Shown: in pieces, positions 15,394 through 28,227 of the stretch
How the letters are laid out: each line of letters opens with the position of its first letter
Numbering within the stretch: position 1 is the stretch's first letter
NCBI GenBank assembly: GCA_021814565.1
Contig: JAKAIC010000001.1
Coordinates: 1-61,360 of the forward strand
DNA from: Actinomycetes bacterium
GTDB taxonomy: Bacteria > Actinomycetota > Actinomycetes > S36-B12 > UBA5976
Length of the DNA stretch: 61,360 bases
Direction of reading: 5' to 3'
The notes under the pieces: model-generated
The model's input: the letters and a program-made list of their open reading frames with translations, nothing else
Databases searched by the model: none
Told to the model about the DNA's origin: nothing
Translations under genes and position numbers: made by a program

Positions 15394-15926
15394 GCCACAT
15401 TCTGACCGTGCAGGTTCACACGTTCATTTTGAGGATCCTCAGCTCAGAATGGACTTCCATTCTGAGGATCCCCCTGGCAAGTTGTTGACCAAACTCCGGT
15501 TCCCTCACGATTCAGGCCCATTTCTGGGCCTCACGAAGAGGCTTGCACACGAAAACACGATTTTTTGCACACAGGCGCACGAATTCATCCGCTGCGACTT
15601 CCCGGTCCCGCCCCGCAAGCCGATGGCGCTGGCGCGCTCGTGGGATCAGCATTCCCAGCAATCCTCGAACGGAGCCCTCTGACATACGCACTCGCAGGAC
15701 CCGTCTGGATCTGAAAATGTGACGTTCCCATCAGTATCCGCGCCAGCTTCGGCCCAAGTGACGTCAAGGATTGCCCGATGCTCCGGCCCCCATCGACGGA
15801 CCGACGCGTTGGCCGCACCGTACGGCCACTTCGGATTGCACACAGCCTGGTTGCTTCACAGCAATTCGCGCGCACAGTTCGGTATCGGACTCAATGCTGT
15901 GCGGCTACGCTGCGGAGGTGCTCGCC

Positions 15927-16691
15927 ATGACTCGGTCTGGAACTTTCCGCTGGGAATCGGAACTGGTCAAATCGCTTCTCCCGGCGGTCGCGAAAATGAG
16001 TCCAGGGCCACGGGACCTAAGTGTGGTTACAGAAGTGCCATGTCCGTCAGGCGGCATTCCCGACATTGTCGGAGTGCTGCTCGACGCGGCCGCCATCGAA
16101 CGTCGAGAGGCATCTGGTCTGGGCGCCGTCACGAATCCGCATGAAGCGGTGATTCTTTCGCGACTGTCAGAAGGCGAAGCCACTTTGACCGAGTTGGCGA
16201 ATGTCGTCTTCCTATCTCGGGAGCACCTGCGTCGCAGCATTCTTCCTCGATTGATCAGTGCGGGCTGGATAGCGCCGCTTCAGGGCAGAGGCGAATCCGC
16301 CTCAACGATGCTGTTGGTCCAATACGAAGACGTCGCGCAGTGGGTAGTGACCGTGGAGGCGAAACTCACAGACTGGCGTGGAGGCATGAGCCAAGCCCTA
16401 AGGCACGCACCCAGTGCGGATGCTGCATATCTCGCACTCGATGCACGGTTCTCGCGTCGAGTGACCCTGCAAGCTTCGGCTGCGAGCGAACGCGGAGTCG
16501 GGATACTGACAGTCGATGCCTCCACCGGTGCCGTTGAAGAGCGCTCAACACCAGTCCGTTGGCAGACGCAGAACGTCCTTCGCCGCATCCTCGCGGAGCG
16601 TGTTTGGACGCAGCTGCGCTCCGACCATGTACCAGGTCATAACGCGCTGGTGTTCGGGCGTGACTTGGGAGCGCTCGCTCTAGCCGGCTAG
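15927..16691 (+). CDS. PD-(D/E)xK-like nuclease-fold protein with an inserted winged-helix segment
   Basis: GGIPDIVGV ... VTVEAKL (D ... ExK pattern), with wHTH-like LTELANVVFLSREHLRRSILPRLISAGWI in between. GGAGG lies 8 nt upstream of ATG 15927. The stop shares a CTAG palindrome with the convergent gene. Confidence 0.5.
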   Translation: MTRSGTFRWESELVKSLLPAVAKMSPGPRDLSVVTEVPCPSGGIPDIVGVLLDAAAIERREASGLGAVTNPHEAVILSRLSEGEATLTELANVVFLSREHLRRSILPRLISAGWIAPLQGRGESASTMLLVQYEDVAQWVVTVEAKLTDWRGGMSQALRHAPSADAAYLALDARFSRRVTLQASAASERGVGILTVDASTGAVEERSTPVRWQTQNVLRRILAERVWTQLRSDHVPGHNALVFGRDLGALALAG

Positions 16692-18079
16692 CGCAATAGA
16701 GCCAGCCACCTATCAAGGTGCTTTGGCAGGTTGTCACCAGCAAGCGGTGTGGGACCGGACGCAATCTTCTGCACCATGGTTCGCGCATCGTTGACCATGC
16801 GTTGCGCGGCGAGGCGCGGCCTGCGGCTCGCCAGCACGCTCGATAGTGCCGCGGTGGCTATGAGGTAATGCTGGCCAGCTACCTCTTTGTTCCAGCCTGC
16901 CGATGTCGGAGCGCTCAAAGGCAGTCGTCTGCAGAAATCGCAACTGCACAACGCATAGGAAGGCTCCCCCATCATTGTGAGATGTGCAGCATGTTCCACC
17001 GTATGGAGAACGGATGATTCGAAGTATCGGACACGTGGTGGGCGCCAATTCTGCCGAGTCGATCCGAATCGGGGTTGATCCGCGTACGCCTGTTCGCTCC
17101 ACCCGATTCCAGTTGAGAAGCCGGTGGCTCCAATAGCGCTCATCACCCATCCCGTAAGACCCGAGTTCGGGAGAATAAGGTTCTTGCCTTCCAGCGCAGC
17201 GGTCGAACAAAGCTCCTTGTACCCGTCGAGCACCTTGGGGTCGACAAGTTGCCCGAACCTTGGTGCAGTCAACGGCCAGCGAAAGCGCAAGTACCACAGT
17301 GACTCACTGGATTCGACGAGTTCGTGTAGCAGGACGTTGCGAAGAGTCGGGTTGGTGAGCCATACGTGATCGAACGTAAGATTGACAAACATTGGCTCGT
17401 CGGGCGCTTGGCTGCGACTGGCTGATACCCATCTCATTGCATGCTGCATCGCCCTTTGCGGAGCTGCATTGTCCACCCAGCCCGTAGCGGACACGAGGGC
17501 GGTAGCTCCCGCGTTACGTTGGACTCTTAGCACTTCCGTCACCCAGGCCGGATCCGTAGGCGAGTCCTGCGCCGGGGCATTGACGAACCAAGGCGAGCGC
17601 CTCCCGGCGCGAGGTCCAAGCGTCTTCGCATCTGGACACTGCGACCGCTCCGCCCTGAAGAGTTCAGGATCCGCCAACAGAAGCCTGTTCGTTGTGAACT
17701 GGCGAAGGAACTGTGTTCGCGCATCCAATCCGGCATTCAGCAATGGAAGTACCGCCCCGATGCCGACTTGACCTCTCGTCGCACGATCGGCCGCAGGAAG
17801 AGTGTCCGCGAAGTGTTGAGAAAGGCGGGCACCTCGCACGAACAAGACGACAGGTACATCACCATCGAGCTGTTTGCTCAATGACGGCCCACCAGTCCGT
17901 ACCGATTCGTCCGGCGGGGTCGTCACCTCGCCGGTTTCCAAGTTGACAATGCGGCCGTCTTCGAGGATCTCAGTGCGACTTTGGTCTGAGCCAGGACCGG
18001 TTTGTGGCTCGATGTGCTGCTGCGTGGACGCGAGATCCCCGTCCATGGGAACGAGGCGATCAGTCGGGTTGCGCGCCAT
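16688..18079 (-). CDS. Hypothetical protein with a TGT/DpdA-like zinc motif (CxCxxC-x20-H)
   Basis: 463 aa. C-terminal ALCSCDFCRRLPLSAPTSAGWNKEVAGQH. No other motif recognised. Alternative start Met at 18046. Confidence 0.5.
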   Translation of the reverse strand: MARNPTDRLVPMDGDLASTQQHIEPQTGPGSDQSRTEILEDGRIVNLETGEVTTPPDESVRTGGPSLSKQLDGDVPVVLFVRGARLSQHFADTLPAADRATRGQVGIGAVLPLLNAGLDARTQFLRQFTTNRLLLADPELFRAERSQCPDAKTLGPRAGRRSPWFVNAPAQDSPTDPAWVTEVLRVQRNAGATALVSATGWVDNAAPQRAMQHAMRWVSASRSQAPDEPMFVNLTFDHVWLTNPTLRNVLLHELVESSESLWYLRFRWPLTAPRFGQLVDPKVLDGYKELCSTAALEGKNLILPNSGLTGWVMSAIGATGFSTGIGWSEQAYADQPRFGSTRQNWRPPRVRYFESSVLHTVEHAAHLTMMGEPSYALCSCDFCRRLPLSAPTSAGWNKEVAGQHYLIATAALSSVLASRRPRLAAQRMVNDARTMVQKIASGPTPLAGDNLPKHLDRWLALLR

Positions 18080-19022
18080 CTCTCTCTTCCATTTCTCGAA
18101 GTGCCCGGCGGGCGGAACCCCGTTCGTGTGGTTCGAAGCTCAGGAGACGCCATACCAAGACTTGCAGGTGTGCTGGCACCTGAACAGGCATGGCGCGGGG
18201 CCCAGATTCGATTCTCTTGAGGAGCTCCTCTGGGAGCACCTGCGCTTCGGAGGCATCGAGGAAGGGGTGTTCGTGCGCGAGCACGAGGTGCGCCACCGCA
18301 CCCGCGGCCCAGACGTCCGCCTGTTTACGACTGCTCTCTCCACGAAGTTGCTCCGGTGCCATGAACGGCACCGTGCCCTTTAGCGTGGGATAAACGGTCA
18401 GCGTCTCAACGTCCAGTTGCTTCGCTAGACCAAGGTCTAGAAGAACCGGCTGGGACCACGCATCGCGACGAAGAGCGATGTTTGCTGGCTTGATGTCCCG
18501 ATGAACTGTCTCTGTCGCGTGCAGAGCTGCAACGGCGCCGAGCAGGGATCGGACAAAGTGCTCGGCGTCGATCAGGGATGGCCAGTCTCCCGAGTCGAGG
18601 TGCCTAGCGACGTCGCGGCCATCCACGTACTCAAACTCGAGTGCCGGCCTGTCCCCTCTGGACAATGTGACGATTGTGCAATCAAGCAAGCGAACGACAC
18701 GTGGATCGGAGACTCTTCGCAGACCGGCGATCTCTCGATCGAGAATCTGTTGCGGATATGCGGAGTGCAGGATGAACTTCACTGCGCTCACGGAATCATG
18801 TCCGCGTTCGACTCGCCAAGTCTCTCCATAGCTACCTCGGCCAAGAAAGGCCACGGAGGCAGCACCGGTCGCGGCAATGACCTCGGCGGCATCTAGTTCG
18901 GCAATACTTCCGTTCCACGCAGGTGCCGCCGTGTTCCCGGTTGTCAAGTGGTCCTCGTTCCTGCTGACCTCTCGAAATACCAACCTCCGCGCTCTAGATG
19001 GGTCGGACCAGCCGAGAACCAA
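18060..19022 (-). CDS. Soluble Hanks-type Ser/Thr protein kinase
   Basis: GRGSYGETW glycine loop, AVKF lysine, HRDIKPANI catalytic loop, DLGLAK, MAPE. No TM or sensor domain. Confidence 0.85.
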   Translation of the reverse strand: MVLGWSDPSRARRLVFREVSRNEDHLTTGNTAAPAWNGSIAELDAAEVIAATGAASVAFLGRGSYGETWRVERGHDSVSAVKFILHSAYPQQILDREIAGLRRVSDPRVVRLLDCTIVTLSRGDRPALEFEYVDGRDVARHLDSGDWPSLIDAEHFVRSLLGAVAALHATETVHRDIKPANIALRRDAWSQPVLLDLGLAKQLDVETLTVYPTLKGTVPFMAPEQLRGESSRKQADVWAAGAVAHLVLAHEHPFLDASEAQVLPEELLKRIESGPRAMPVQVPAHLQVLVWRLLSFEPHERGSARRALREMEERDGAQPD

Positions 19023-19049
19023 ACTTCTGAGGCGGGTTGATCGACCAAT

Positions 19050-19733
19050 TCACTCATCGCTTCGCAGCTCGTTCGGTTGCGCGATGTCTTCATCGGGAGG
19101 CGCTTGGCCTGGCGCCGGTGGGAGTTGCAGGCCACGAGCGATTCGCCACTGGTAGTAGCGCTCCCTGACGAACTCTTCCGCTTCAGTCCAATTGACGGCA
19201 CGAGGTGCCGTCACCTGCTCCGAGACATTCGACGGGTTTGTGAAGCAAAGTACGTCTACACCGTGTGCCTGTAGCCGCGCAATGTTGCCGGCTGAATCTT
19301 CGACGAAGACGTCGGCTCGCACGGCTGCCTTGTCTTCGATCAGGCAGAGGTCTCGGTACGGAATTCCGTGCAGTTCCAGCCAGCGAATGGTCTGGCTCGC
19401 AGCGGGTTCGTGAAAGTACGGGATAAACAGGCGATGTGTGGCAATCCTGATATGAACGCCCTCTGCGCTCAAGCGGCGTAGCGCTTGCGGCGCACCAGCG
19501 ACCGGCTGCATCTTCGCAAAGAGATCGCGCTGCGTGACCGCAAATCGGTGCAAGCGTCGGTACTGAACCATGTCCAGATCCCATTCAGGGAACCCGTATC
19601 GAGGCGATGGGTGCAACGTCTCTATCGGCTGGCCGGACCACTCGGCGAACACTTCGCGCATGCTTTGCAAGAAGTCTGCGACACAACCGTCGAGATCCAG
19701 TCCAAGAACGAACTTGTCAAACTTGTCGGCCAC
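19050..19733 (-). CDS. 5'(3')-deoxyribonucleotidase-like HAD protein (NT5C family-like)
   Basis: Motif I LDLDGCVADF, IATHR, VFVEDSAGN. GTG start at 19733 preceded by GGAAGGGGG. The tracked ORF extends to 19865. Confidence 0.6.
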   Translation of the reverse strand: MADKFDKFVLGLDLDGCVADFLQSMREVFAEWSGQPIETLHPSPRYGFPEWDLDMVQYRRLHRFAVTQRDLFAKMQPVAGAPQALRRLSAEGVHIRIATHRLFIPYFHEPAASQTIRWLELHGIPYRDLCLIEDKAAVRADVFVEDSAGNIARLQAHGVDVLCFTNPSNVSEQVTAPRAVNWTEAEEFVRERYYQWRIARGLQLPPAPGQAPPDEDIAQPNELRSDE

Positions 19734-19859
19734 ATCGGCCCCCTTCCGATACGACAACGCTAGACCTGCTTCGCAGTGCTTGGGCTGCGTGACGCGTCTG
19801 CGTATGAGCGTGTTGCGCTCATGGTGCGAATGAGACATCCATCTCGGAGGCCGAACCCC

Positions 19860-20006
19860 ATGCAAGACCTATCATTGACAGTAACCGAAGTCCCGTGCGC
19901 TGGGTGCGGGGAGTTGATTCCTGTACAGCACTTCGCGCACGCACGGCATACGGAGTTTGCGCCTAGGTACCACCTCGAATGCGCAATCTCAGAGGCGCAG
20001 AACTGA
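19860..20006 (+). CDS. Possible 48-aa CxxC/His-rich mini-protein
   Basis: MQDLSLTVTEVPCAGCGELIPVQHFAHARHTEFAPRYHLECAISEAQN. GGAGG lies 9 nt upstream of the ATG. No homology evidence. Confidence 0.25.
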   Translation: MQDLSLTVTEVPCAGCGELIPVQHFAHARHTEFAPRYHLECAISEAQN

Positions 20007-20173
20007 GCCTGCTGCTGCTTCGTCCTGGCGGACAGTTCGTCGGCCATCTTGAGCCTGCCCCCAGCCCGCGGGCAGGCTCAAGATCTTCTTCCGAGAATCT
20101 TCAACGAGCGAGTGCAGCGTCTCGGGCGGCGGTAAGTCATAGCAGGCACCCCCGATCCCGACCACAAGCTTGC

Positions 20174-20728
20174 CTACGAGTGGTTCAACGCCTGTTTAGC
20201 TACCCCTGTAGTGCTGTAGCGGAACCTCGCCATTTCAACGGTTACGTCGTAGTCGTTGGCGATCTGTTCGACGCTGGCGCGACGTCGAGCGGCGCTGAGG
20301 AGGAGAGGGCGCGGGAGGAGGAGAGTGCCGCCGAATGCGGTTGCTTCCTCTTCTTCGTCCGGTCTACATGTCCGGAACGGCATGCCATCGAGTTCCTTGA
20401 TCTCAGACAGGTCATGCTTGAGCATCACATGCGAAAGTTCGTGCGCTAGGTCGCTGTTCTGGCGCCCCACGCTTCGCAGCGGGCTGACCACGATGATCTT
20501 GCGATTCTGGATCTCAAACGTTGCGGCGGAAAAGGAGAACGACTGAAGGCGTTCGAGTTCCTCGAGTTCAGACATGGTCACGAGGTCGGCGGCGTCGACG
20601 ATAGCGAGGCCAAGGTGGCGTGCTAACTCGCGTGGGTCGAGACGGTCATGCGGGGCGAGGCCCAGTTCTCTTCGCACTCGCGCCGCTTCACGTTCAGCTT
20701 CCGCCTTGAACCCGCGCCGTAGCGTCAC
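20174..20728 (-). CDS. ImmA/IrrE-family zinc metallopeptidase (CapP-like)
   Basis: 184 aa. HExxH in AHELSHVMLKH. Start overlaps the stop of the upstream XRE gene. Confidence 0.8.
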   Translation of the reverse strand: MTLRRGFKAEAEREAARVRRELGLAPHDRLDPRELARHLGLAIVDAADLVTMSELEELERLQSFSFSAATFEIQNRKIIVVSPLRSVGRQNSDLAHELSHVMLKHDLSEIKELDGMPFRTCRPDEEEEATAFGGTLLLPRPLLLSAARRRASVEQIANDYDVTVEMARFRYSTTGVAKQALNHS

Positions 20729-21225
20729 AATTCCCCAGCGGCGACGCGAGCGGCCAATTTCTCGTGCATCTCGACGAGCAGACTATTGAGGCGATGTGGG
20801 ACGCCCGGGCGGAGGACCGATGCCGCTCGAAGGTGGCAGGCCACCACCTGCCTTTGCGTCGGGGCCTTCGCCAGTCCGTCGTACATGCTTCGGAGGAAAT
20901 CGGCGATCTTCCTTGCCGCCTCAGGTTCGAGCCGCGGGTCTGATGCGAGATGGGCGATTGCCTCGTCGATGGGCGTCACCTCGCGCACAGTGACTGGAGT
21001 GAAGAACTCGCCCGGGGACACCCCAAGCCACGCGCAGAGCAGCGTGAACGACGTGAGGTCTGGTTGAGCGCCGGCTTCAATCCGGGTGAACGTGCTGAAA
21101 CTGACGCCCGCATCTTCGGCCGCCTTACGGAGCGACAACTTCCCTCGACGCTCCCGAAGGAGGGCACCGAGTTGGGCAATATCGAGCCGCTCCACACGGT
21201 CAGGGGCGCTGGAGGCGGAAGTCAC
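20725..21225 (-). CDS. XRE-family helix-turn-helix regulator (CapH-like)
   Basis: LGALLRERRGKLSLRKAAEDAGVSFSTFTRIEAG is a canonical Cro/C1 HTH. Co-operonic with ImmA and divergent from the ubiquitin-like operon. Confidence 0.8.
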   Translation of the reverse strand: MTSASSAPDRVERLDIAQLGALLRERRGKLSLRKAAEDAGVSFSTFTRIEAGAQPDLTSFTLLCAWLGVSPGEFFTPVTVREVTPIDEAIAHLASDPRLEPEAARKIADFLRSMYDGLAKAPTQRQVVACHLRAASVLRPGVPHRLNSLLVEMHEKLAARVAAGEL

Positions 21226-21300
21226 GCTGCCTCCGCACGACTGCTGGACCCGAAATCGACTGGTTCCATGCGCCGGAGTGTAGCGCCGAATTGGCGCTCT

Positions 21301-21324
21301 GGTGACACGACACGACGTGTCACC
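21301..21324. promoter_or_regulatory. Candidate operator: 9-bp inverted repeat GGTGACACG-N6-CGTGTCACC
   Basis: Perfect 9-bp arms in the 175-bp divergent intergenic region between the XRE gene and the Mub gene. Confidence 0.45.
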
Positions 21325-21345
21325 AACTCAGCAATGACGCTTTGC

Positions 21346-21354
21346 TGATACAAT
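21346..21354 (+). promoter_or_regulatory. Candidate extended -10 element TGATACAAT
   Basis: TGn-TACAAT about 47 nt upstream of the Mub ATG. AGGAG lies 6 nt before ATG 21401. Confidence 0.3.
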
Positions 21355-21400
21355 TTCTGTGGTGTCCGAACCGCGGAGCCGAGCCTTTTAGGAGCCACAA

Positions 21401-21643
21401 ATGCATGATGCGAACAATGCTTCACCAATCAACTTCACGATCGACGGTCAGAGTTTCACGACCGACGATGCCACGCAATCACCCGCCTCGCTCTTGGCGT
21501 TCGTGGGGTTCGACACCGCCTCCTACGACCTCATGCAGATGTTGCCCGACGGCAAGCCGCGCAAGTTCCAAGAAGGCCAGACAGTGCACATCGAGAATGG
21601 CGAGGAATTCTTGACGGTGCGCAAGGAAGCGTCGGTGGCCTGA
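21401..21643 (+). CDS. Multiubiquitin (Mub)-type beta-grasp domain protein
   Basis: 80 aa. INFTIDGQSFTTDD...QTVHIENGEEFLTV pattern and its position upstream of Prok-E2 and E1-JAB genes. Stop overlaps the next start. Confidence 0.6.
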   Translation: MHDANNASPINFTIDGQSFTTDDATQSPASLLAFVGFDTASYDLMQMLPDGKPRKFQEGQTVHIENGEEFLTVRKEASVA

Positions 21644-22020
21644 TGAGCGAGCGTCCGCCGCGTGACGGAGTCGATGGCTTCATCGCCGACCTCGCAGACT
21701 TCAACATCGCCGCGTTCATCGATGGACCTGTCGTGCGCTACTCGGTGACACCGATCGATGGGTCTATGAGCGGATCCGCCGTGGAGACCGCCGTGGGAAT
21801 CGTCGAACTCGCTCCGTGGCCCGCTGCACCTCCGCACTGGATCCATCTTCCAGCGCACTTCACGTTTGCGCACACGAACACCCAACCCCAGGGCTCGCTG
21901 CTCGGCTGGCTCTGCCACTCGCGCAACATCACATCGTGGACGCCAAGCGCTCACCCTGGCCGGCAATGGCTTGCGCATGTCCGCACTGTTCTCGGTCAGA
22001 TCACTGGAACGGCGGCCTGA
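21643..22020 (+). CDS. Prokaryotic E2-like protein (Prok-E2_E-like)
   Basis: 125 aa. PPHWIHLP motif and candidate Cys in GWLCHSR. Gene order Mub-E2-JAB/E1. Confidence 0.55.
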   Translation: MSERPPRDGVDGFIADLADFNIAAFIDGPVVRYSVTPIDGSMSGSAVETAVGIVELAPWPAAPPHWIHLPAHFTFAHTNTQPQGSLLGWLCHSRNITSWTPSAHPGRQWLAHVRTVLGQITGTAA

Positions 22021-22021
22021 T

Positions 22022-23494
22022 ATGCGTCACAGCGTTGCCATGTCAGTGCAAGTCGACGCGGCCCTCCGGGAGCACCTTGATCGACCAGATGGTCAAGAGG
22101 ACATCTGTCTTGCGACCTACTCGGTATCCACGGGCCGAACGCGTATTTCCCGCCTCATAACCCAGGTCGAACTCCCCGCGACAGGCGAACGTCGCGTCCA
22201 CGGAAACGCGACGATCACCGGGGACTACGTGCTTCGGGTCGCGGCCGTGGCCGCCGCCCGAGAAGAAGGCCTCGTCATTCTCCATTCACACCCCGGTGGT
22301 CACGGCTGGCAGGAACTCAGCGGCCCCGACCACGACGCCGAGCGTTCCTACTCGCACCTCGTGCAGCGCATCACTGGACTCCCGCTAGTGGGAATGACCT
22401 ACTCGGGTGGCGACCAGGCATGGTCGGCCCGCGAATGGGTCATCGGATCTCCCATCTGGCACGAGAGTGTCCGTGTCGTCGGGAACACACTGCGCATCAC
22501 CTGGAACGACACGCAACGGCGGCCACCGGCAACGACGGTCGAGCAGATCCGCACCGTCTCTGCTTGGGGCGAACAACTGCAGCAGGACATTGCCCGGATG
22601 CGCGTCCTTGTTGTCGGCGTCGGCAGCGTCGGACTCGATGTGGCCATTCGCCTCGCGGCCACCGGCATCCAACACATCGGCGTCATGGACTACGACACTG
22701 TCGAGCCGCTGAACCGTGACCGCATGATCGGAGCAACGCGCAAGGATGCGCGACGCAAGACTCCAAAGGTCGAGGTGGCGGACCGGCTTATGACGACCGC
22801 TGCAACCGCCCGATGCCCTGAGATCGCGCTCCATTACCTCAGCATCTGCTCGCCGGAGGGCTTGGCCACCGCGCTCGACTACGACGTCATCTTCTCCTGC
22901 GTCGACCGTCCGTGGCCTCGGGCAGTCATGAACACCCTTGGCTACTCAGACCTGATCCCTGTCATTGATGGCGGTATCAACATCGACACATTCCCCAACG
23001 GATGCATGCAAGGGGCAAGTTGGCGTGTACAGGCCGTAGCACCCGGTGTCCCTTGTCTGTCGTGCTCCGGGCAGATAAACATGCCGCAGGTTGCCCTAGA
23101 CCGGGCTGGGCTACTCGATGACGCGAACTACATCTCACAAGCCGGCCTCCATTCACCCGCAAGTCAGAATGTCGCGCTGCTCTCCGCAAGTGTGAGCGCT
23201 GCACAGCTCGCGCAATTCGTCACGCTCACTGTCTCGCCAGGCGGTCGCGGTGTGTACTCGCCGCTGCGGTACATCCTTGCGGCGCACCACCAAGAACACC
23301 TCGATGGCATCAGCCAGCCCGGCTGTCGCTTCGAACATCGACCTGGCGAAGGCGACAAGCGGAGCGAATTCGTTAGCAACACCGGTCCTTGGATCGACGC
23401 AATGGCAGCACGCACACGCAAGCGGCGCAACTTCGCGTTGCCGTGCGCACTCGCCCGGTTCGTCGCCAGTGCACGCATCACGGACCGCAAGTAA
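22022..23494 (+). CDS. JAB/JAMM deubiquitinase-like domain fused to ThiF/E1-like adenylation domain
   Basis: EEGLVILHSHPGGHGWQELSGPD (E...HxH...SxxD) followed by Rossmann VLVVGVGSVGLDVA...VMDYDTVEPLNRDR and PCLSCSG. ATG at 22022 lies 2 nt after the E2 stop. Confidence 0.75.
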   Translation: MRHSVAMSVQVDAALREHLDRPDGQEDICLATYSVSTGRTRISRLITQVELPATGERRVHGNATITGDYVLRVAAVAAAREEGLVILHSHPGGHGWQELSGPDHDAERSYSHLVQRITGLPLVGMTYSGGDQAWSAREWVIGSPIWHESVRVVGNTLRITWNDTQRRPPATTVEQIRTVSAWGEQLQQDIARMRVLVVGVGSVGLDVAIRLAATGIQHIGVMDYDTVEPLNRDRMIGATRKDARRKTPKVEVADRLMTTAATARCPEIALHYLSICSPEGLATALDYDVIFSCVDRPWPRAVMNTLGYSDLIPVIDGGINIDTFPNGCMQGASWRVQAVAPGVPCLSCSGQINMPQVALDRAGLLDDANYISQAGLHSPASQNVALLSASVSAAQLAQFVTLTVSPGGRGVYSPLRYILAAHHQEHLDGISQPGCRFEHRPGEGDKRSEFVSNTGPWIDAMAARTRKRRNFALPCALARFVASARITDRK

Positions 23495-23496
23495 TC

Positions 23497-23616
23497 ATGC
23501 GCACGGAAATCGAAGCGAATAATCGAGCTGATCGCAAGTCGCGGGAGCGGCAGCTGAAGTCGATGCAAATGAACAGCTCGACCATTGCACCGCAACCTTC
23601 TGGAGGTCACCCATGA
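23497..23616 (+). CDS. Possible 39-aa mini-ORF wedged between the E1-JAB gene and the next gene
   Basis: ATG lies 2 nt after the E1 stop. Its stop overlaps the next start in ATGA. Peptide MRTEIEANNRADRKSRERQLKSMQMNSSTIAPQPSGGHP. No SD. Confidence 0.25.
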   Translation: MRTEIEANNRADRKSRERQLKSMQMNSSTIAPQPSGGHP

Positions 23617-23855
23617 CGGACGTGTTGGTCGAAATCGGCAACATACTTCTGGAACAATCGAGCAGGCTGCCCCGCGTCATGAAGGACAGCATCGTCGTCG
23701 GGTTTCTACTCCTTGCGGTCATCGCCCCACAGGCGCTACGTCATGTCGTTGACGCCTGGGTGCATCTGGAGACGCAGACGATCATGCATCGCCTGCAACC
23801 GCTGCTTGAGGCGGCCGCCGGCGCGGCCACAACGGCCACTACCACTCACGCTTGA
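23613..23855 (+). CDS. Small single-pass membrane protein
   Basis: 80 aa. GGAGG lies 9 nt upstream of the ATG. Hydrophobic IVVGFLLLAVIAP. Last gene of the same-strand run. Confidence 0.45.
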   Translation: MTDVLVEIGNILLEQSSRLPRVMKDSIVVGFLLLAVIAPQALRHVVDAWVHLETQTIMHRLQPLLEAAAGAATTATTTHA

Positions 23856-24102
23856 GTGAATGCTGCTGACAGCCGGACCGCCAGAATCTTGCGCTCATGT
23901 TCTGCCGCTGCATCCATGCGTTAGTGCTGCAACGACATGGCGACTTGATTGACGTGGTGGGAGGCTACGCGCCCGCACCTTCGAAAGTCTGGCAGGCTCT
24001 GCGTGCGAATTCCTTGGACGCGCGCCATCGAGCCCTCAGCGAGTTTGCTCCTCAGTGTCTTCTGCCGGCATTCGCCCACCAGTCATGCGGCCGCCACGAG
24101 AA

Positions 24103-25338
24103 TCAGTTCTGGCGCAGGACGGTTCCGCTGGGCCCCGCGGTCTCACAGTCGGGACTGGCGCAGTCGACGCCATGGCTGCCGGACAACGCGATCAATATGA
24201 CGCAGACAAGCAGGATGAGACCGCCCACGCTTGCCAAGCTGGCAACTTCGTTGGTGTGCGCAACCATGACCGCGGCGAGCACTGGGCCGACCGGTCCGAT
24301 TGCATACGATCCAAGCGCGTCGATCGCGAAAACGCGGGAAAGCTCTTGCGACGGTATCGATCGTTGAAGCACGGTCACCCACAGGACTCCGAAGACCTCA
24401 ATGCCCGCACCTGTGAGGAGTGCAGCCACTAAGACTTGCGAAATGCTTCCGACCGCGAGCGCAAGTGGCTCGAGGGCGATGAGGCTCGCGTATTGGAGAG
24501 CGCGAAGAAGCGGCTTGGTGGGATCGAGCCTAAGCGCAAGCGCCGCACCGAGCACTGAACCAACCCCGGTTGCAGCCGATACGCTGCCCCACACTTCCGC
24601 CCCGCCAAGGTGCGTCACGGCTTGCATGGGTCCCAGTACGTTGATGCACGCGAGGAATGCAGCGTTGATCAGGGCAAACCCCGCCACCGTTTGCAGCAAC
24701 CATGGTCTAGAGACAACGGCTTTCACGCCTTGCTTTGCTGCTTGTCGCCAAGACTCCTGCGCTTCCGCCACTTGCGGAATCTCGCGCAATCCCATCCGGC
24801 TCACTGCACCAAAAAGGCAACTAACTCCGACAAACGTCAGGATCGCGGAGCCGTAGCGCCCGGCCAACCAAGCTCCCAGGAACGCCCCGCCGATCTGCGC
24901 TACATTGGCGATAATGCGACGGATACTGTTCGCTGACTGAATCTTTGCGGCGTCCACGACTTGCGTGAGAATGCCTTGGCTTGCGGGCAGGTAGAAGCCG
25001 AGCCCAACCCCTCGCAGCGCGGTGAACGCCGCCACCGGAAGTAGCTGCAAAGGTGCCCTCTCGAAAGTGACACTCAAACTGAAGGCTGCCGCTGCCTGCA
25101 TCAAGTCTGCCAGCAGCATCACGTCACGCCTGGACCTACGATCGGCGATCAACCCGCCAAAGACCAGCGCCAGGACCTGCGCCGCCAGGAGCGCTACCGA
25201 CACGACCGCCAGGTCCGCACCGCTGCCACGGGCCGAAAGGATGAGCACCGGCGTTGCTGTCGTCGCGGCGGCGCCAGCCAGCAACGTCGCAGCGTCACTC
25301 GCGCAGAGCCATACGAAGCGTCGACCCAACCGGTTCAT
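24103..25338 (-). CDS. MFS transporter
   Basis: 411 aa with ~12 hydrophobic segments. GGLIADRRSRRD loop motif typical of MFS. Confidence 0.8.
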   Translation of the reverse strand: MNRLGRRFVWLCASDAATLLAGAAATTATPVLILSARGSGADLAVVSVALLAAQVLALVFGGLIADRRSRRDVMLLADLMQAAAAFSLSVTFERAPLQLLPVAAFTALRGVGLGFYLPASQGILTQVVDAAKIQSANSIRRIIANVAQIGGAFLGAWLAGRYGSAILTFVGVSCLFGAVSRMGLREIPQVAEAQESWRQAAKQGVKAVVSRPWLLQTVAGFALINAAFLACINVLGPMQAVTHLGGAEVWGSVSAATGVGSVLGAALALRLDPTKPLLRALQYASLIALEPLALAVGSISQVLVAALLTGAGIEVFGVLWVTVLQRSIPSQELSRVFAIDALGSYAIGPVGPVLAAVMVAHTNEVASLASVGGLILLVCVILIALSGSHGVDCASPDCETAGPSGTVLRQN

Positions 25339-25937
25339 GAAGGTCGGTTGGATGCTCGTTTGCCGCTGCTTGCGGCACTCTTCGCTGCGGACGGTGTCTT
25401 CGAGCTACCGGGATCTGGAGAAGTTTGTACCTCGGCGCTGCTGAACATCATAACCGTCGAACTCACGTGAACAACTCCCGAGGCAGACTTGTCGGTGGCG
25501 GCCTTGTGCAAGCGCTCCAACGCCTTGGCTACCGCTCGAGCGCATTGAATCCATGCGTCCTCGCTCACCCATAGCTCCGCATCGCTGAAGAGGTCCCAAG
25601 AGTCTGGCTTTGCCGCCAACAGGCGGCGACGGACCTCGGCGGAAGCTGCTGCTGCGCTCGAAGGCAGATCGACGGCAGCACCATCAGCGAAGTCGCCCGC
25701 GGTTCGATACAGCCGCTCCTGGCCACCGCGCACGCTGCGCACGTCCACCAACTCGATCAAACCAGCCGCAGCCAATTGACGAACGTGGAAACTGACCGCG
25801 GCCTGAGACTTTCCGAGTTCGCGTCCCAGTTCAGTTGCCGATCTCGGGGCGCCCGTGAGCATGGAAAGGATCCGCAAGCGCACGGGATGCGAGAGCGCAC
25901 GGAGGTGCTGGCGTTCAGCATCATCCACCAAAGACAT
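25335..25937 (-). CDS. ArsR-family winged-helix regulator with C-terminal extension
   Basis: LRALSHPVRLRILSML...ATELGRELGKSQAAVSFHVRQLAAAGLI. 4-nt overlap with the MFS gene. Confidence 0.8.
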   Translation of the reverse strand: MSLVDDAERQHLRALSHPVRLRILSMLTGAPRSATELGRELGKSQAAVSFHVRQLAAAGLIELVDVRSVRGGQERLYRTAGDFADGAAVDLPSSAAAASAEVRRRLLAAKPDSWDLFSDAELWVSEDAWIQCARAVAKALERLHKAATDKSASGVVHVSSTVMMFSSAEVQTSPDPGSSKTPSAAKSAASSGKRASNRPS

Positions 25938-26216
25938 GTTTTGGAGCCTCCCACTGGAGACGCGGACACGTCAAGGAATGCATGTTGCACGCTCTTCGCG
26001 CTGAATCTCTGCGGAGCACCAATCGGTGCACCAGAAGTCTGCACGGCGGGCCCGAGCCCGCCCTACCGAGTGCGTCGCTGCAGCCGCTAGAAGTGCGTGC
26101 GACAGACCCGGGCGAGGCGACCACAAAAGGAGTGCTTGACGGTAGCGTCGGCATGATGCAGCATCCGCACAAGAGTTGCTTTGCAGTTGAGTGCTTGGCG
26201 CAACGGGGGGATTGCA

Positions 26217-27389
26217 GTGGTATCGCTGACTGGCGTTCGAGTACTTCCTGGTCGCTATGGCACCTGGTACACGCGGAACGGCCGTTCGATCTTGATCTCA
26301 GAAGAGGCCGATCCATTCGCTCCCAGCGGCGAAGTGCTCCAGGTGATTTCGGACGCTGGGCTTCTTGACAAGCGCGACAAGCTCTATGGGGCGACGGTCA
26401 TGCTGACATCGCGCTGCAACCTTGCCTGCGCCTACTGCTTTCAAAACGAATCTGGCGGCGAGTCAGGCATCACGAGAATCGATCGGCATGACTTGACGGC
26501 ACGCAACGTAGAGCGTGTCCGAGATTTCGTCGCAGAACAGATGCTGCGGCACGGAAAGTCGGAACTTCACTTGCTGCTGACGGGCGGAGAGCCGCTCATG
26601 AACTATGCAAACTGCCTCGAACTGCTGGACGCGATGGCGCCTCTTGGAGCCGTCCAAGCCGAAATGTTTACAAATGGAGTCTTGCTCAGCAAGGATCGTG
26701 CCGTCGCGCTTTCGCAAGCTGGGCTCACACGCATCCAGGTGTCGTTTGACGGTGCAGGCGACGAACACGATCGGTACCGCAAGACGCCGGCCGGCGTCGG
26801 CTCCTACGCGCGCATCATGCAGAACCTGGTGAACACGCTTGACGCCGCACCGAATCTCAAGGTGACCATGCGCCTAAACATCACCGCTCGCAACGTTCCG
26901 ACGCTTGATCAACTTCTCCTTGCGCTGAGCGAAGTTGCTGCCGGACGGAAGTTGGCCATTCGATTCGGCCTCGTTGATGACATTGGGCTCAACTTCGTCG
27001 ACGCGCCTGATCGAAGCGCAACGACAGCAGAACAAATTCGAGACCTCGCACTAATCGCAATGGAACTTGGCCTGGACGTGGAGCCGATGGCTGCCCCCGG
27101 AGACTGCCTGTTCTGTGGCGTCATCGGAGGCGGTTCCGGGTCTGTCATCAACGCCGACGGAACGCTGTACAGCTGTTGGGAGAGTGTCGGTCGGACCGAA
27201 CTCGCCGTTGGCGATGTGACACGGGGCTATCTAGCCGGCAATGACTTGACCGAACGATGGGTGGACTGCTCATACAACATCGTTGACAGGAACGCGGCTA
27301 CCAAGTCTGCCAGGCAGATCAGTGACGTTGTGGACACGGCGGTTCTTGATCGTTCGTTTGAGCTGCTCAACGTAGGGAGTGCAAGTTGA
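26217..27389 (+). CDS. Radical SAM enzyme with C-terminal auxiliary Cys cluster (SPASM/twitch-like)
   Basis: CNLACAYC (Cx3Cx2C), GGEPL, and C-terminal DCLFCG...GTLYSCWE...VDCS. GTG 26217 is preceded by GGGGGG. The tracked ORF starts at TTG 26181. Confidence 0.8.
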   Translation: MVSLTGVRVLPGRYGTWYTRNGRSILISEEADPFAPSGEVLQVISDAGLLDKRDKLYGATVMLTSRCNLACAYCFQNESGGESGITRIDRHDLTARNVERVRDFVAEQMLRHGKSELHLLLTGGEPLMNYANCLELLDAMAPLGAVQAEMFTNGVLLSKDRAVALSQAGLTRIQVSFDGAGDEHDRYRKTPAGVGSYARIMQNLVNTLDAAPNLKVTMRLNITARNVPTLDQLLLALSEVAAGRKLAIRFGLVDDIGLNFVDAPDRSATTAEQIRDLALIAMELGLDVEPMAAPGDCLFCGVIGGGSGSVINADGTLYSCWESVGRTELAVGDVTRGYLAGNDLTERWVDCSYNIVDRNAATKSARQISDVVDTAVLDRSFELLNVGSAS

Positions 27390-28165: not shown

Positions 28166-28170
28166 ATCAA

Positions 28171-28227
28171 ATGGTGAAGGCAATTCTCATTCAGTCAGAG
28201 CCCATCATCGTGTGCGTCGTGCACTAG
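28171..28227 (+). CDS. Unannotated 18-aa ORF MVKAILIQSEPIIVCVVH (candidate RiPP precursor)
   Basis: GGGGAGG lies 7 nt upstream of the ATG and 5 nt after the methyltransferase stop. Followed 12 nt later by an 11-bp perfect GC hairpin. Too short for the ORF track. Confidence 0.4.
   Translation: MVKAILIQSEPIIVCVVH

What the first reader, a model, noticed from the sequence alone, without database searches (positions are those of the whole stretch)
20174..23855. Multiubiquitin / E2 / JAB-E1 conjugation operon under a divergent XRE + ImmA (CapH/CapP-like) regulator pair
Gene order on the + strand is a Mub-type beta-grasp protein (80 aa), an E2-like protein (PPHWIHLP, Cys in WLCHSR), and a JAB (HSHP...SGPD) fused to a ThiF/E1 domain (GVGSVG, PCLSCSG). 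All have overlapping or 2-nt junctions. This matches the operon class predicted computationally by Iyer, Burroughs and Aravind (multi-ubiquitin + Prok-E2 + E1 + JAB). It is also related to the Bil and CBASS Cap2/Cap3 machineries that act in antiviral defence. Divergently transcribed are an XRE HTH repressor and an HExxH ImmA peptidase, the architecture described for DNA-damage-responsive CapH/CapP control of defence operons. To my knowledge the Mub-type class has no established target or phenotype, so this compact regulated example is a good experimental handle.
Basis: partly seen in the sequence, partly recalled or inferred. Interest (0 to 1): 0.7.

Follow-up and report, generated by a model that had tools for sequence, protein, structure and literature searches.

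The report
Minimal bacterial ubiquitin-like tagging operon
This is a real five-gene module: a small ubiquitin-like protein, an E2-like enzyme and a peptidase-E1 fusion, placed under a repressor/protease switch; it is a stripped-down, so far undescribed relative of the recently characterised bacterial 'Bub' protein-tagging pathway and probably works through serine and tyrosine rather than cysteine.

Summary
The genes are there and form one conserved module, 20174-23494: an ImmA-type peptidase and an XRE repressor, divergent from Ubl (80 aa), an E2-like protein (125 aa) and JAB-E1 (490 aa). Ubl > E2 > JAB-E1 recurs in all 84 related loci that could be scored.

That class is no longer only predicted. 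It is now 'Bub', shown to conjugate through an E1 tyrosine and an E2 serine. The JAB-E1 here is a clear BubCD relative (Foldseek E 2e-33, TM 0.7-0.8).

The Cys of WLCHSR occurs in 3 of 82 relatives, while His92-Ser93 are invariant and Arg94 is in 81 of 82. In the E1, Tyr370 is invariant and no Cys is conserved in the crossover loop. The PCLSCSG cysteines look like the ThiF/MoeB zinc site.

This clade differs from described Bub operons in three ways:
- It has no DUF6527/BubE.
- Ubl and E2 are never fused.
- The Ubl ends in an encoded Val-Ala.

The peptidase lacks CapP's GAF domain. The ORF at 23613-23855 and the '7-gene locus' are not supported.

Verdict: a new variant of a known kind. Target and phenotype are unknown.

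The parts
20174..20728 (-). ImmA/IrrE-type Zn metallopeptidase (184 aa, HELSH motif). Putative protease of the adjacent repressor. It has the peptidase domain only, with no GAF domain.
   Evidence: Pfam Peptidase_M78 9.1e-16. PADLOC capP 1.7e-13, covering only profile positions 5-154 of 242. Overlaps the XRE gene by 4 nt. Co-conserved with the operon in L001, L020 and L083.
20725..21225 (-). XRE-family helix-turn-helix repressor (166 aa): N-terminal HTH at residues 18-74 plus a C-terminal region of about 90 aa.
   Evidence: Pfam HTH_31 4.4e-8 and HTH_3 4.6e-6. PADLOC capH only 0.0067. Transcribed divergently from the Ubl operon.
21300..21325 (.). Perfect palindrome TGGTGACACG-N6-CGTGTCACCA in the divergent intergenic region. 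Candidate operator for the XRE dimer.
   Evidence: It is the only inverted repeat found in 21200-21420. GTGTCAC-like half-sites recur in the intergenic regions of L020, L083 and L001. Its function is inferred.
21346..21354 (+). Extended -10-like element TGATACAAT inside a sequence block (CTTTGCTGATACA) conserved between loci. Candidate promoter of the Ubl operon, 21 nt downstream of the palindrome. An AGGAG ribosome-binding site lies at 21390-21394.
   Evidence: Read from the sequence. The block is conserved in an alignment of four intergenic regions from different genera. The sigma-70 consensus scan found nothing, so this is an inference.
21401..21643 (+). Ubiquitin-like protein (80 aa, one Multi_ubiq-type beta-grasp domain). 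Its encoded C-terminus is ...KEASVA.
   Evidence: Multi_ubiq E 1.1e-3 for this protein. 15 of 22 relatives hit it, best 2.5e-13. In 85 loci the C-terminus is Ala in 83 and Val-Ala in 80, and 19 have two tandem domains.
21643..22020 (+). E2-like (UBC-fold) protein of 125 aa. The proposed catalytic residue is Ser93, in the motif His92-Ser93-Arg94. Other conserved residues: Trp59-Pro60, Pro64-His65-Trp66, Trp109, His112.
   Evidence: AF2 model pLDDT 91.5. Foldseek top hit is Citrobacter BubB 9eae_C (prob 0.90, TM 0.48, E 0.09), followed by UbcH7 E2s. Conservation was measured over 82 distinct sequences; Cys91 occurs in 3 of 82. There is a transitive link to Pfam Prok-E2_E through P0320.
22022..22516 (+). 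JAB/JAMM metallopeptidase domain of the fusion protein (about residues 1-165). Its active-site set is intact: Glu26, His88-x-His90, Ser100, Asp103.
   Evidence: Aligns to the BubCD peptidase domain. Glu26, His88, His90 and Asp103 are invariant in 80 of 80 sequences and Ser100 in 79 of 80. Prok-JAB scores only 0.0037.
22538..23494 (+). E1-like adenylation domain (about residues 173-450) plus a C-terminal helix. Features: GxGxxG at residues 199-204, Arg234, Asp295, Cys345-x-x-Cys348, and a crossover region at about 340-383 that contains the invariant Tyr370.
   Evidence: ThiF 2.2e-24. BubCD profile match E 9e-27. AF2 model pLDDT 87.9, with two short helices in the crossover region. The top 8 Foldseek hits are all BubCD, E 2e-33, TM 0.7-0.8. 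Residue conservation is 80 of 80, and no Cys is conserved in 349-383.

Best explanation
A five-gene, horizontally mobile module encodes a minimal Bub-like (Iyer/Aravind class 6e) ubiquitin-like conjugation pathway under an ImmR/ImmA-type switch.

Proposed mechanism:
1. The XRE dimer sits on the 21300-21325 palindrome next to the operon promoter and keeps the operon off (inferred).
2. A stress or infection signal activates the short M78 peptidase, which cleaves the repressor and de-represses the operon (inferred by analogy with CapH/CapP, ImmR/ImmA and DdrO/IrrE). The sensing step is unclear because the GAF domain is absent.
3. The E1 domain adenylates the C-terminal Ala of the 80-aa Ubl. The Ubl is made ready to use and needs no processing.
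4. The Ubl passes to Tyr370 on the flexible crossover loop as an oxyester.
5. It then passes to Ser93 of the E2-like protein, with His92 and Arg94 assisting.
6. It finally reaches a lysine of an unknown target.
7. There is no precursor to cut and no BubE protease. The fully conserved JAB domain is therefore most likely the pathway's deconjugating or editing isopeptidase.

What is shown here: the gene set, its conservation, the folds, the homology to BubCD and BubB, and the pattern of conserved residues. What is inferred: the chemistry, the target, the regulation and the biological role. The likely role is defence against phages or other mobile elements, or a damage response.
For: Module and synteny:
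- Ubl > E2 > JAB-E1 occurs in all 84 related loci that could be scored.
- Only 20192-23356 is shared with the closest related locus.

JAB-E1:
- BubCD is the best solved relative: phmmer 5.5e-20, profile 9e-27, over both domains.
- The AF2 model (pLDDT 87.9) gives BubCD as its top 8 Foldseek hits (E 2e-33, TM 0.70-0.82). The next hit is MoeB at 5e-14.
- Glu26, His88, His90, Asp103, Arg234, Asp295 and Tyr370 are 80 of 80, and no Cys is conserved in 349-383.
- The region holding Tyr370 is modelled as two short helices plus coil with lower pLDDT. This matches the published description of the BubCD crossover loop that carries catalytic Tyr370 (PMC11601596).

E2:
- The model is confident (pLDDT 91.5). 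BubB is the top structural hit, followed by UbcH7-type E2s.
- His92-Ser93 are 82 of 82, Arg94 is 81 of 82 and Cys91 is 3 of 82.
- Ser93-Arg94 stay invariant in remote relatives that touch Pfam Prok-E2_E.

Ubl:
- Multi_ubiq hits at family level.
- The encoded terminus is Val-Ala in 80 of 85 loci.

Published biochemistry:
- Bub E1 Tyr and E2 Ser are required for conjugation in vitro and in cells (PMC11601596).

Regulation:
- M78 and HTH hits, a palindrome beside a conserved -10-like block, and M78-containing regulators of three architectures next to 44 of 85 loci.

Context:
- Relatives sit beside DarTG, Abi_2, a type ISP restriction enzyme, Wadjet, integrases and relaxases, and on plasmids.
Against: - Nothing here is experimental for this clade.
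- The E2 structural match is weak in statistical terms (E 0.09, TM 0.48). There is no direct sequence match to BubB or Prok-E2_E.
- I could not align Tyr370 residue by residue with BubCD Tyr370. HMM alignments stop at residue 347, and the C-terminal part alone finds nothing in the PDB. The equivalence rests on position and conservation.
- Cys345 and Cys348 are invariant and lie at the base of the crossover loop, so a cysteine intermediate on the E1 is not excluded by conservation alone.
- The residues that accompany the E2 serine (His-Ser-Arg) differ from those published for Type I (Ser-x-His plus Asp) and Type II (Lys + His).
- Even canonical Bub operons have no demonstrated phage phenotype (PMC13373217).
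- The peptidase lacks the GAF domain of CapP/IrrE, so DNA-damage sensing is not implied.
Confidence: 0.6

Rival explanations
1. One reading: a canonical thioester cascade. The Ubl would be charged on an E1 cysteine (PCLSCSG) and passed to the E2 cysteine of WLCHSR, as in Bil or eukaryotic ubiquitination.
For: The window protein does have Cys91 next to the conserved motif. Cys345 and Cys348 of the E1 are invariant, 80 of 80. All classical E1 and E2 enzymes use cysteine (established knowledge).
Against: Cys91 occurs in 3 of 82 family members; the position is usually Arg, Met, Gly or Lys. The CxxC lies about 22 residues before Tyr370. That is the spacing and position of the structural zinc CxxC of MoeB, ThiF and UBA5 relative to the UBA5 catalytic residue (my knowledge of those structures, not tested here). 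His422 and Cys435 are also invariant and could complete a zinc site. The nearest characterised homologue, BubCD/BubB, works without cysteines (PMC11601596).
Confidence: 0.08
2. The E2-like protein is a non-catalytic UBC/RWD-type adaptor, as Iyer et al. first proposed for class 6e. In this reading the module does something other than protein tagging. Examples: the E1 modifies the Ubl C-terminus only, or the Ubl acts as a carrier as ThiS and MoaD do.
For: Iyer et al. 2006 called the 6e E2 'inactive E2-/RWD like'. There is no catalytic Cys. The Ubl ends in Ala, not Gly-Gly. The E1 is closest, outside Bub, to MoeB, ThiF and UBA5.
Against: An invariant His-Ser-Arg sits in the loop 12 residues before helix 2, where E2 catalytic residues lie. 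The homologous BubB serine is catalytic. There are no sulfur-transfer partners nearby, such as a rhodanese, ThiG or MoaE. An intact JAB isopeptidase is conserved. Mobile and defence-island contexts are not metabolic ones.
Confidence: 0.1
3. The chemistry is as in the best explanation, but the biological role is not antiviral. The module would serve the mobile element that carries it, or act as a general DNA-damage or stress response. Examples: tagging host or element proteins during induction, exclusion of competing elements, or addiction.
For: Relatives lie on plasmids and next to relaxases and integrases. The regulator is of the ImmR/ImmA type, known from ICE and prophage induction (discussion of bioRxiv 10.1101/2022.04.27.489752). 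In several loci the upstream pair is annotated as HigB/HigA-like. Bub operons have not been shown to protect against phage, and the authors themselves raise a stress-response role.
Against: Neighbours in several loci are bona fide defence systems: DarTG, Abi_2, type ISP R-M and Wadjet. The related Bil and CBASS-Cap2 systems are antiviral. This rival concerns the role only and is compatible with the proposed mechanism.
Confidence: 0.3

Closest known systems
Type I Bub operon (formerly 6E.1/DUF6527): BubAB + BubCD + BubE. Ye, Gong, Chambers, Corbett, bioRxiv 2024 (PMC11601596) / NSMB 2026. Structures 9ea4, 9eae, 9eav.
   Same: - JAB-E1 fusion with the same two-domain fold (Foldseek E 2e-33, TM 0.7-0.8).
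- Invariant Tyr in a cysteine-free crossover loop.
- UBC-like E2 without catalytic Cys and with an invariant Ser.
- Multi_ubiq-type Ubl, sometimes in tandem.
- Frequent HTH + M78 regulators.
   Different: - No DUF6527/BubE gene.
- Ubl and E2 are separate genes in all 85 loci, whereas the paper states that all Type I operons fuse them.
- The Ubl C-terminus is an encoded Ala rather than a Gly exposed by JAB cleavage.
- The E2 motif is His-Ser-Arg rather than Ser-x-His plus Asp.
- The E1 keeps a CxxC that BubCD lacks at the aligned position.
- Only about 20% identity.
- Centred on Actinomycetota and Chloroflexota.
Iyer/Burroughs/Aravind class 6e (polyUbl operons), Genome Biol 2006 (PMC1779556). 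Pfam Multi_ubiq PF14452 and Prok-E2_E PF14462.
   Same: Same predicted parts list for three of the four components. Multi_ubiq hits at family level. 19 of 85 loci have two tandem Ubl domains.
   Different: - The fourth component (metal-binding protein 'Y', now DUF6527) is absent.
- The window Ubl has a single domain and scores below the Pfam threshold.
- Prok-E2_E does not detect the window E2. The link is only transitive (P0320, 4.8e-5, below the gathering score).
CapH/CapP (Lau et al. 2022) and the related ImmR/ImmA and DdrO/IrrE repressor-protease pairs.
   Same: An XRE HTH repressor and an HExxH M78 peptidase. The genes are adjacent, overlapping and divergent from the controlled operon. 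A palindrome lies in the shared intergenic region. PADLOC capP 1.7e-13.
   Different: The peptidase is 184 aa and covers only the peptidase part of the capP profile (5-154 of 242). The GAF domain described for CapP and IrrE is missing, so it resembles short ImmA enzymes. The capH profile hit is marginal (0.0067).
Bil (BilABCD) and type II CBASS Cap2/Cap3.
   Same: Bacterial E1/E2/JAB machinery that makes covalent conjugates. Both are found in defence contexts. The precedent for a non-Gly (Ala) C-terminus comes from CD-NTases (my recollection, not checked here).
   Different: - Bil has a separate JAB, a tandem IAD-AAD-CYS E1 and cysteine chemistry.
- CBASS has an E2-E1 fusion and conjugates a CD-NTase, and none is present here.
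- PADLOC E1-E2 hits are limited to the nucleotide-binding region of the E1.

Membership tests
Bub / 6e operon (Type I) | JAB/JAMM peptidase fused to an E1-like adenylation domain (BubCD) | tested here: met
   phmmer 5.5e-20 and profile 9e-27 to 9ea4 over residues 5-347. Foldseek E 2e-33, TM 0.70-0.82, 469-482 aligned columns.
Bub / 6e operon (Type I) | E1 crossover loop without cysteine and with an invariant tyrosine | tested here: met
   Tyr370 is 80 of 80, and no conserved Cys lies in 349-383. The region is modelled as two short helices plus coil. Caveat: an invariant Cys345-x-x-Cys348 sits at the base of the loop, and residue-level equivalence to BubCD Tyr370 could not be aligned.
Bub / 6e operon (Type I) | UBC-fold E2 lacking catalytic Cys and carrying an invariant Ser | tested here: met
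   AF2 pLDDT 91.5. The top Foldseek hit is BubB, then UbcH7, but only E 0.09 and TM 0.48. Ser93 is 82 of 82 and Cys91 is 3 of 82.
Bub / 6e operon (Type I) | The E2 serine is accompanied by an invariant His two residues later and an invariant Asp (S333/H335/D299) | tested here: not met
   The motif here is His92-Ser93-Arg94. The residue two positions after the Ser is variable (Asp, Gln or Asn). The invariant acidic residue is Glu55, not Asp. No residue-level alignment to BubB was available, so the structural equivalence of His92 or Glu55 is open.
Bub / 6e operon (Type I) | Ubl encoded as a fusion to the E2 (BubAB) and released by JAB cleavage after a conserved Gly | tested here: not met
   Ubl and E2 are separate ORFs with stop/start overlap in 85 of 85 loci. 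The Ubl terminus is Ala in 83 of 85 and Gly in 1. Rare fused forms do exist in metagenomic relatives (P0263, P0300).
Bub / 6e operon (Type I and II) | DUF6527/PF20137 protein (BubE serine protease; 'metal-binding protein Y') | tested here: not met
   - No PF20137 hit among 20 window neighbours scanned.
- None in the precomputed Pfam tables of L001-L005 and L089-L091.
- None in the RefSeq annotation of two plasmid loci.
- No recurrent fourth gene across 85 loci, and none of the six most recurrent neighbour families scanned is DUF6527.
Bub / 6e operon | Ubl made of one to three Multi_ubiq-type beta-grasp domains | tested here: met
   Window protein E 1.1e-3, below the gathering score. 15 of 22 relatives hit, best 2.5e-13. 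There are 66 single-domain and 19 double-domain Ubls. No structure model of the Ubl was made.
Bub / 6e operon | ATP-dependent Ubl-lysine conjugation through oxyester intermediates | not testable with these tools
   This needs biochemistry. Only conservation of the corresponding residues is shown here.
Pfam Prok-E2_E (PF14462) | Profile match at or above the gathering score (25 bits) | tested here: not met
   The window protein has no hit even at E 10. None of 215 homologues carries a precomputed Pfam domain. Remote relatives P0320 (23.6 bits, 4.8e-5) and P0348 (0.012) come close.
CapH/CapP regulator pair | XRE HTH repressor plus HExxH M78 peptidase, adjacent and divergent from the regulated operon | tested here: met
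   HTH_31 4.4e-8, Peptidase_M78 9.1e-16, capP 1.7e-13, HELSH motif. 4-nt gene overlap. A palindrome lies in the shared intergenic region.
CapH/CapP regulator pair | CapP three-domain architecture: peptidase, HTH-like linker and C-terminal GAF domain (ssDNA-activated) | tested here: not met
   The protein is 184 aa. The match covers capP profile positions 5-154 of 242 and Pfam M78 residues 67-171. The domain description is from bioRxiv 10.1101/2022.04.27.489752.
CapH/CapP regulator pair | Peptidase cleaves the repressor on DNA damage and de-represses the operon | not testable with these tools
   This needs cleavage and reporter assays.
Bil (BilABCD) | [quoted passage not shown] | tested here: not met
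   The JAB is fused to a single-adenylation-domain E1 of 490 aa. The E2 has no conserved Cys.
Type II CBASS (Cap2/Cap3) | CD-NTase plus an E2-E1 fusion (Cap2) and a JAB (Cap3) | tested here: not met
   No CD-NTase was found in the neighbourhood. PADLOC E1-E2 hits (best 2e-9) cover mainly the nucleotide-binding segment. Cap2 structures rank far below BubCD.

The most novel reading that the evidence does not exclude
This locus represents a third, minimal type of Bub-like pathway, widespread in Actinomycetota and Chloroflexota and present on Mycobacterium abscessus and M. avium plasmids. In it, a ready-made Ubl ending in alanine is conjugated purely through Tyr and Ser oxyesters by a distinct His-Ser-Arg E2. 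The fused JAB domain, freed from precursor processing, acts as the sole deconjugase. The whole module is an inducible defence against phages or other mobile elements.
Probability: 0.3. Interest if true: 0.75.

Novelty: new variant of a known kind. Interest (0 to 1): 0.55.

Why it matters
Oxyester-based ubiquitin-like conjugation has so far been described for one operon family, Bub, mainly from proteobacteria. That family always has a fourth protease gene and often needs precursor cleavage.

This clade would show that the same chemistry runs with three proteins only. It uses a different set of residues around the E2 serine and an alanine C-terminus. Comparing the two would show which residues are really required.

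It is also a cleaner experimental handle, for three reasons:
- The Ubl needs no processing.
- There is a single candidate deconjugase.
- The regulator is compact.

The system occurs in culturable Rhodococcus, Nocardioides, Microbacterium and Mycobacterium with available phages. That makes the still-open question of what Bub-type pathways tag, and whether they defend against phage, directly testable in a native-like host.

Tried and rejected
1. Direct sequence or profile match of the E2 to solved structures. Nothing relevant turned up. P0348 against the PDB also gave nothing.
2. Aligning Tyr370 with BubCD Tyr370. HMM alignments end at residue 347, and a profile of the C-terminal 140 residues found nothing in the PDB. 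The equivalence therefore stays positional.
3. A structure model of the Ubl with a family alignment. I spent the last model on the JAB-E1 instead, so the beta-grasp call rests on Pfam only.
4. Supplementary tables of the Bub paper, to get BubE and BubB sequences or the operon catalogue. None are held. The published NSMB version is not held either.
5. A search for a conserved fourth gene. Clustering all ORFs within 3.5 kb of 85 operons gave only lineage-restricted neighbours.
6. The ORF at 23613-23855 as part of the system. Rejected: no family hit, no conservation, one marginal tblastn hit.
7. The neighbouring Ser/Thr kinase as a CapK-type regulator. Rejected: CapK is an HTH-STAS-GHKL kinase, whereas this is a Pkinase-fold protein in a separate minus-strand operon that relatives do not share.
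8. The sigma-70 consensus scan of the intergenic region found nothing. The promoter call rests on an extended -10-like block conserved between loci.
9. A literature search for this actinobacterial variant found nothing specific.

Full report
**What is in the sequence**

Five ORFs form a compact divergent module:
- an M78 peptidase, 20174-20728 (-), 184 aa;
- an XRE HTH protein, 20725-21225 (-), 166 aa, overlapping the peptidase gene by 4 nt (GTGA);
- on the other strand, an 80-aa protein (21401-21643), a 125-aa protein (21643-22020) and a 490-aa protein (22022-23494).

The junctions of the plus-strand genes are a 1-nt overlap (TGATG) and a 1-nt spacer.

Profile searches give:
- Peptidase_M78 9e-16 and PADLOC capP 1.7e-13;
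- HTH_31 4e-8 (capH only 0.0067);
- ThiF 2e-24;
- Multi_ubiq 1.1e-3, below Pfam's threshold;
- Prok-JAB 0.0037;
- nothing at all for the 125-aa protein in Pfam, NCBIfam, PADLOC or PDB sequences.

**How far the unit extends**

Against 88 related loci, DNA similarity to the closest relative covers 20192-23356 only. Nothing outside the five genes is shared with any locus.

It has no family hit and no conserved counterpart. The '7-gene locus' is therefore not supported.

The flanking genes belong to other units. They are an NT5C nucleotidase, a Pkinase-fold kinase and a 463-aa unknown on the minus strand, and an MFS transporter with an ArsR regulator downstream.

**Is the arrangement more than chance?**

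The JAB-E1 has at least 1961 relatives at E <= 1e-10 in the protein collection. Of 185,579 species genomes scanned, 205 encode a relative.

I fetched 80 of those genomic loci plus five from contig look-ups. All 84 loci that could be scored have the order Ubl > E2-like > JAB-E1 on one strand, with the Ubl stop at the E2 start. One further locus loses its Ubl at a contig end, and one, whose JAB-E1 is cut by a contig end, could not be scored.

Hosts are mostly Actinomycetota: Nocardioides, Rhodococcus, Mycobacterium, Microbacterium, Amycolatopsis, Arthrobacter and Frankia relatives. Many are Chloroflexota and Acidimicrobiia MAGs.

Copies also lie on plasmids of Rhodococcus, Clavibacter, Mycobacteroides abscessus and Mycobacterium avium. 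RefSeq calls the three genes 'multiubiquitin domain-containing protein' or 'hypothetical', 'hypothetical protein', and 'ThiF family adenylyltransferase'.

**The JAB-E1**

Its best solved relative is Citrobacter BubCD. The match is E 5.5e-20 with the single sequence and 9e-27 with a family profile, running from the peptidase domain into the adenylation domain.

An AlphaFold model built on 23 sequences is confident (pLDDT 87.9, pTM 0.89). Its eight best Foldseek matches are all BubCD chains (E 2e-33 to 3e-30, TM 0.70-0.82, about 475 aligned columns). MoeB and UBA5 follow at about 1e-13.

In 80 distinct family members the following are invariant:
- the JAMM set Glu26, His88-x-His90 and Asp103 (Ser100 is 79 of 80);
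- the glycine-rich loop;
- Arg234 and Asp295;
- Cys345-x-x-Cys348, Tyr370, His422 and Cys435.

No cysteine is conserved between residues 349 and 383. The model shows residues 340-383 as coil plus two short helices with reduced confidence. Tyr370 lies in the second helix.

The Bub paper describes the BubCD crossover loop (347-377) as two short helices followed by coil. Its only invariant residue, Tyr370, is required for conjugation (PMC11601596). I could not obtain a residue-level alignment of the two tyrosines. The equivalence is positional.

From my knowledge of MoeB, ThiF and UBA5, that is where the structural zinc CxxC lies relative to the UBA5 catalytic residue. BubCD has no cysteines at the aligned position ('kpggstls' against 'aPGvPCLS').

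**The E2-like protein**

The word-indexed search found only 14 relatives with the single sequence and 215 with a profile. None carries any Pfam domain. An exhaustive profile search of 1.8 billion representatives found 102.

The model is confident (pLDDT 91.5). Its order of elements is helix 1, a strand meander, then a long helix at residues 105-117.

Foldseek puts Citrobacter BubB (9eae_C) first (prob 0.90, TM 0.48, E 0.09). A run of UbcH7/UBE2L3 structures follows (TM 0.40-0.48). This supports a UBC fold, but the statistics are modest.

- Position 91, the Cys of WLCHSR, is Arg in 39, Met in 18, Gly in 9, Lys in 6 and Cys in only 3.
- His92 and Ser93 are 82 of 82, and Arg94 is 81 of 82.
- Trp59-Pro60, His65-Trp66 and Trp109 are also 82 of 82. 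Pro64, His112 and Glu55 are 81 of 82.

Ser93 lies 12 residues before the long helix. That is the usual place of the E2 catalytic residue (inference from the model's secondary structure).

Remote relatives keep Ser93-Arg94 (motif KWSRP). One of them, P0320, matches our profile at 2e-8 and reaches Pfam Prok-E2_E at 4.8e-5, just below the threshold. A Ubl-E2 fusion, P0348, shows Multi_ubiq plus Prok-E2_E at 0.012.

The family is therefore an outlying branch of the 6e E2s that current profiles miss.

**The Ubl**

The window protein alone is marginal for Multi_ubiq. Of 22 diverse relatives, 15 hit it, best 2.5e-13.

In 85 loci, 66 Ubls have one beta-grasp domain and 19 have two in tandem.

The encoded C-terminus is Val-Ala in 80 of 85, Ala in 83 and Gly in one. 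The stop codon touches the E2 start, so no precursor has to be cut.

Two metagenomic relatives are true Ubl-E2 fusions, in which the same '...VA' is followed by a linker (P0263, P0300). This links the split form to the fused BubAB form.

**Comparison with the literature**

Iyer et al. (2006) list class 6e as polyUbl + inactive E2/RWD-like domain + JAB-E1 + a metal-binding protein.

Ye et al. renamed it Bub. Type I is BubAB (a Ubl-E2 fusion) + BubCD + BubE (DUF6527 serine protease). Type II is BubA + BubBD + BubE. The paper states that 'All Bub operons possess bubE' and that in all Type I operons the Ubl is fused to the E2. Of 544 operons, 31% carry CapH+CapP.

Conjugation needs E1 Tyr370 and E2 Ser333/His335. 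As of June 2026 no phage protection had been shown for Bub.

Our locus shares the JAB-E1, the Tyr, the Ser-E2, the Multi_ubiq Ubl and the regulator type.

It lacks DUF6527. The evidence:
- There are no PF20137 hits among the window neighbours scanned.
- There are none in the precomputed Pfam tables of eight look-up loci.
- There are none in two RefSeq-annotated plasmids.
- No recurrent fourth gene exists in 85 loci.

It also has split genes, an Ala terminus, and His-Ser-Arg instead of Ser-x-His + Asp or Lys + His.

I found no paper describing this variant. The published catalogue itself was not available to me. I therefore cannot exclude that some members were seen and set aside.

**Regulation**

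The 175-nt divergent intergenic region holds one perfect palindrome, TGGTGACACG-N6-CGTGTCACCA (21300-21325).

It lies 21 nt upstream of a TGATACAAT element. That element sits in a block (CTTTGCTGATACA) conserved in the intergenic regions of relatives from other genera, where GTGTCAC-like half-sites also recur. A good AGGAG precedes the Ubl ATG.

This fits a repressor-operator arrangement but remains an inference. The consensus promoter scan was negative.

The peptidase has HELSH but is only 184 aa and matches capP profile positions 5-154 of 242. [quoted passage not shown] This enzyme is better described as ImmA-like, and what activates it is open.

Across the 85 loci, M78-containing regulators appear in three architectures, 44 loci in all:
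- a separate HTH + M78 pair in 13 loci;
- an HTH-M78 fusion, often with a HigB/RelE-like gene, in 18 loci;
- an M78 with a zinc ribbon in 13 loci.

**Context**

Relatives sit next to DarT/DarG, Abi_2, a type ISP restriction enzyme, Wadjet JetABC, SLFN/AlbA_2, integrases and MOBF/TrwC relaxases.

In the window the module lies in a lower-GC stretch, about 0.58-0.62 from roughly 15 to 32 kb against 0.64-0.68 beyond. That stretch also holds a PD-T4-6/MAD6-like kinase, a radical-SAM protein with weak pVip similarity, a MAD2-like methyltransferase and an rve transposase.

This is typical of a variable island. It is compatible with a defence role but does not prove one.

**Mechanism proposed**

1. 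The repressor keeps the operon off. The peptidase removes it on an unknown stress or infection signal.
2. The E1 adenylates the Ubl's terminal Ala.
3. The Ubl passes to Tyr370, then to Ser93 of the E2, then to a target lysine.
4. The JAB domain has nothing to process here and no BubE to share the work with, yet all its catalytic residues are invariant. It most likely removes or edits conjugates.

The anatomy, homology and conservation are shown. Every step above is inferred.

**Verdict**

The catalytic-residue reading, the extent and the CapP equivalence are not supported.

This is a minimal, BubE-less, split-gene, Ala-terminated branch of the Bub family, common in Actinomycetota and apparently undescribed.

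Noticed in passing
window 16688-19865 (-): A separate minus-strand operon: an NT5C-type deoxyribonucleotidase (271 aa), a Pkinase-fold Ser/Thr kinase (320 aa; PADLOC PD-T4-6 4e-42, MAD6-like 1e-39) and a 463-aa protein with no family hit. A 306-aa ORF with a weak wHTH hit follows at 15771-16691 (+). This could be a defence or nucleotide-depletion system of its own. It is not shared with any relative of the Ubl operon.
   Followed up: partly
window 9551-15682 (+): Four consecutive ORFs (671, 588, 632 and 110 aa) with coding-like GC3 but no Pfam or PADLOC hit. ARAGORN calls a tRNA-Gly(gcc) at 13908-13996 on the opposite strand, inside the 632-aa ORF. Either the tRNA call or the ORF is doubtful.
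   Followed up: partly
window 26181-28165 (+): A radical-SAM protein (402 aa; PADLOC pVip 3e-14, partial) translationally coupled to a SAM methyltransferase (259 aa; MAD2-like 1e-12). An rve-family transposase follows at 30902-31942.
   Followed up: partly
window about 15000-32000: GC content is 0.58-0.62 here against 0.64-0.68 in the flanks, with another dip at 10-11 kb. This suggests that the Ubl module lies in a horizontally acquired, variable island. No integrase or direct repeats were looked for.
   Followed up: no
L010, L019, L029, L031, L033, L037, L042-L044, L048, L052, L059, L066, L068, L080, L082, L004/L005, L021: In 19 of 85 loci the Ubl has two tandem beta-grasp domains. Only the second ends in ...VA. 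These loci are mainly from Microbacteriaceae and some mycobacteria.
   Followed up: partly
P0263, P0300 (metagenomic representatives): Rare genuine Ubl-E2 fusions within the same E2 family. The conserved '...VA' is followed by a short linker (AGGRM.., AGYADRL..) and then the E2. These are natural intermediates between the split form and BubAB, and candidate JAB substrates.
   Followed up: partly
L016, L018, L028, L030, L038, L045-L047, L050, L054-L078 (mostly Chloroflexota and Acidimicrobiia): In 20-27 of 85 loci the operon is flanked by a sigma-70-like protein (about 232 aa), an SMC/RecN-like ATPase (about 600 aa) and an unannotated 300-aa protein. This may be a lineage-specific accessory or sensor module.
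   Followed up: partly
L088 (Haloprofundus halobius plasmid, NZ_CP083669.1) 3059-5584; also hits H12-H15: Haloarchaeal plasmids carry an analogous split three-gene set: 90 aa, 163 aa and a 587-aa ThiF-family protein that is 30% identical to the window JAB-E1. The Ubl there ends ...KGSGRS and the E2-like protein has DPHWVV and RWSH motifs. A PLD-like protein and a DEAD-box helicase lie beside it.
   Followed up: partly
L086 (Mycobacteroides abscessus subsp. bolletii plasmid 1) and hits H5, H10: The three-gene system lies on mobilisable plasmids of M. abscessus and M. avium, next to an ImmA/IrrE-family peptidase and a MobF relaxase. This is relevant if the system affects mycobacteriophage or plasmid biology.
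   Followed up: no
L003, L087 (Rhodococcus plasmids): Here the upstream divergent pair is a RelE/HigB-like toxin gene plus a 358-aa 'HigA' that is really an HTH-M78 fusion (Pfam HTH_3 + Peptidase_M78). The regulator of the Ubl operon may double as a toxin-antitoxin module.
   Followed up: partly
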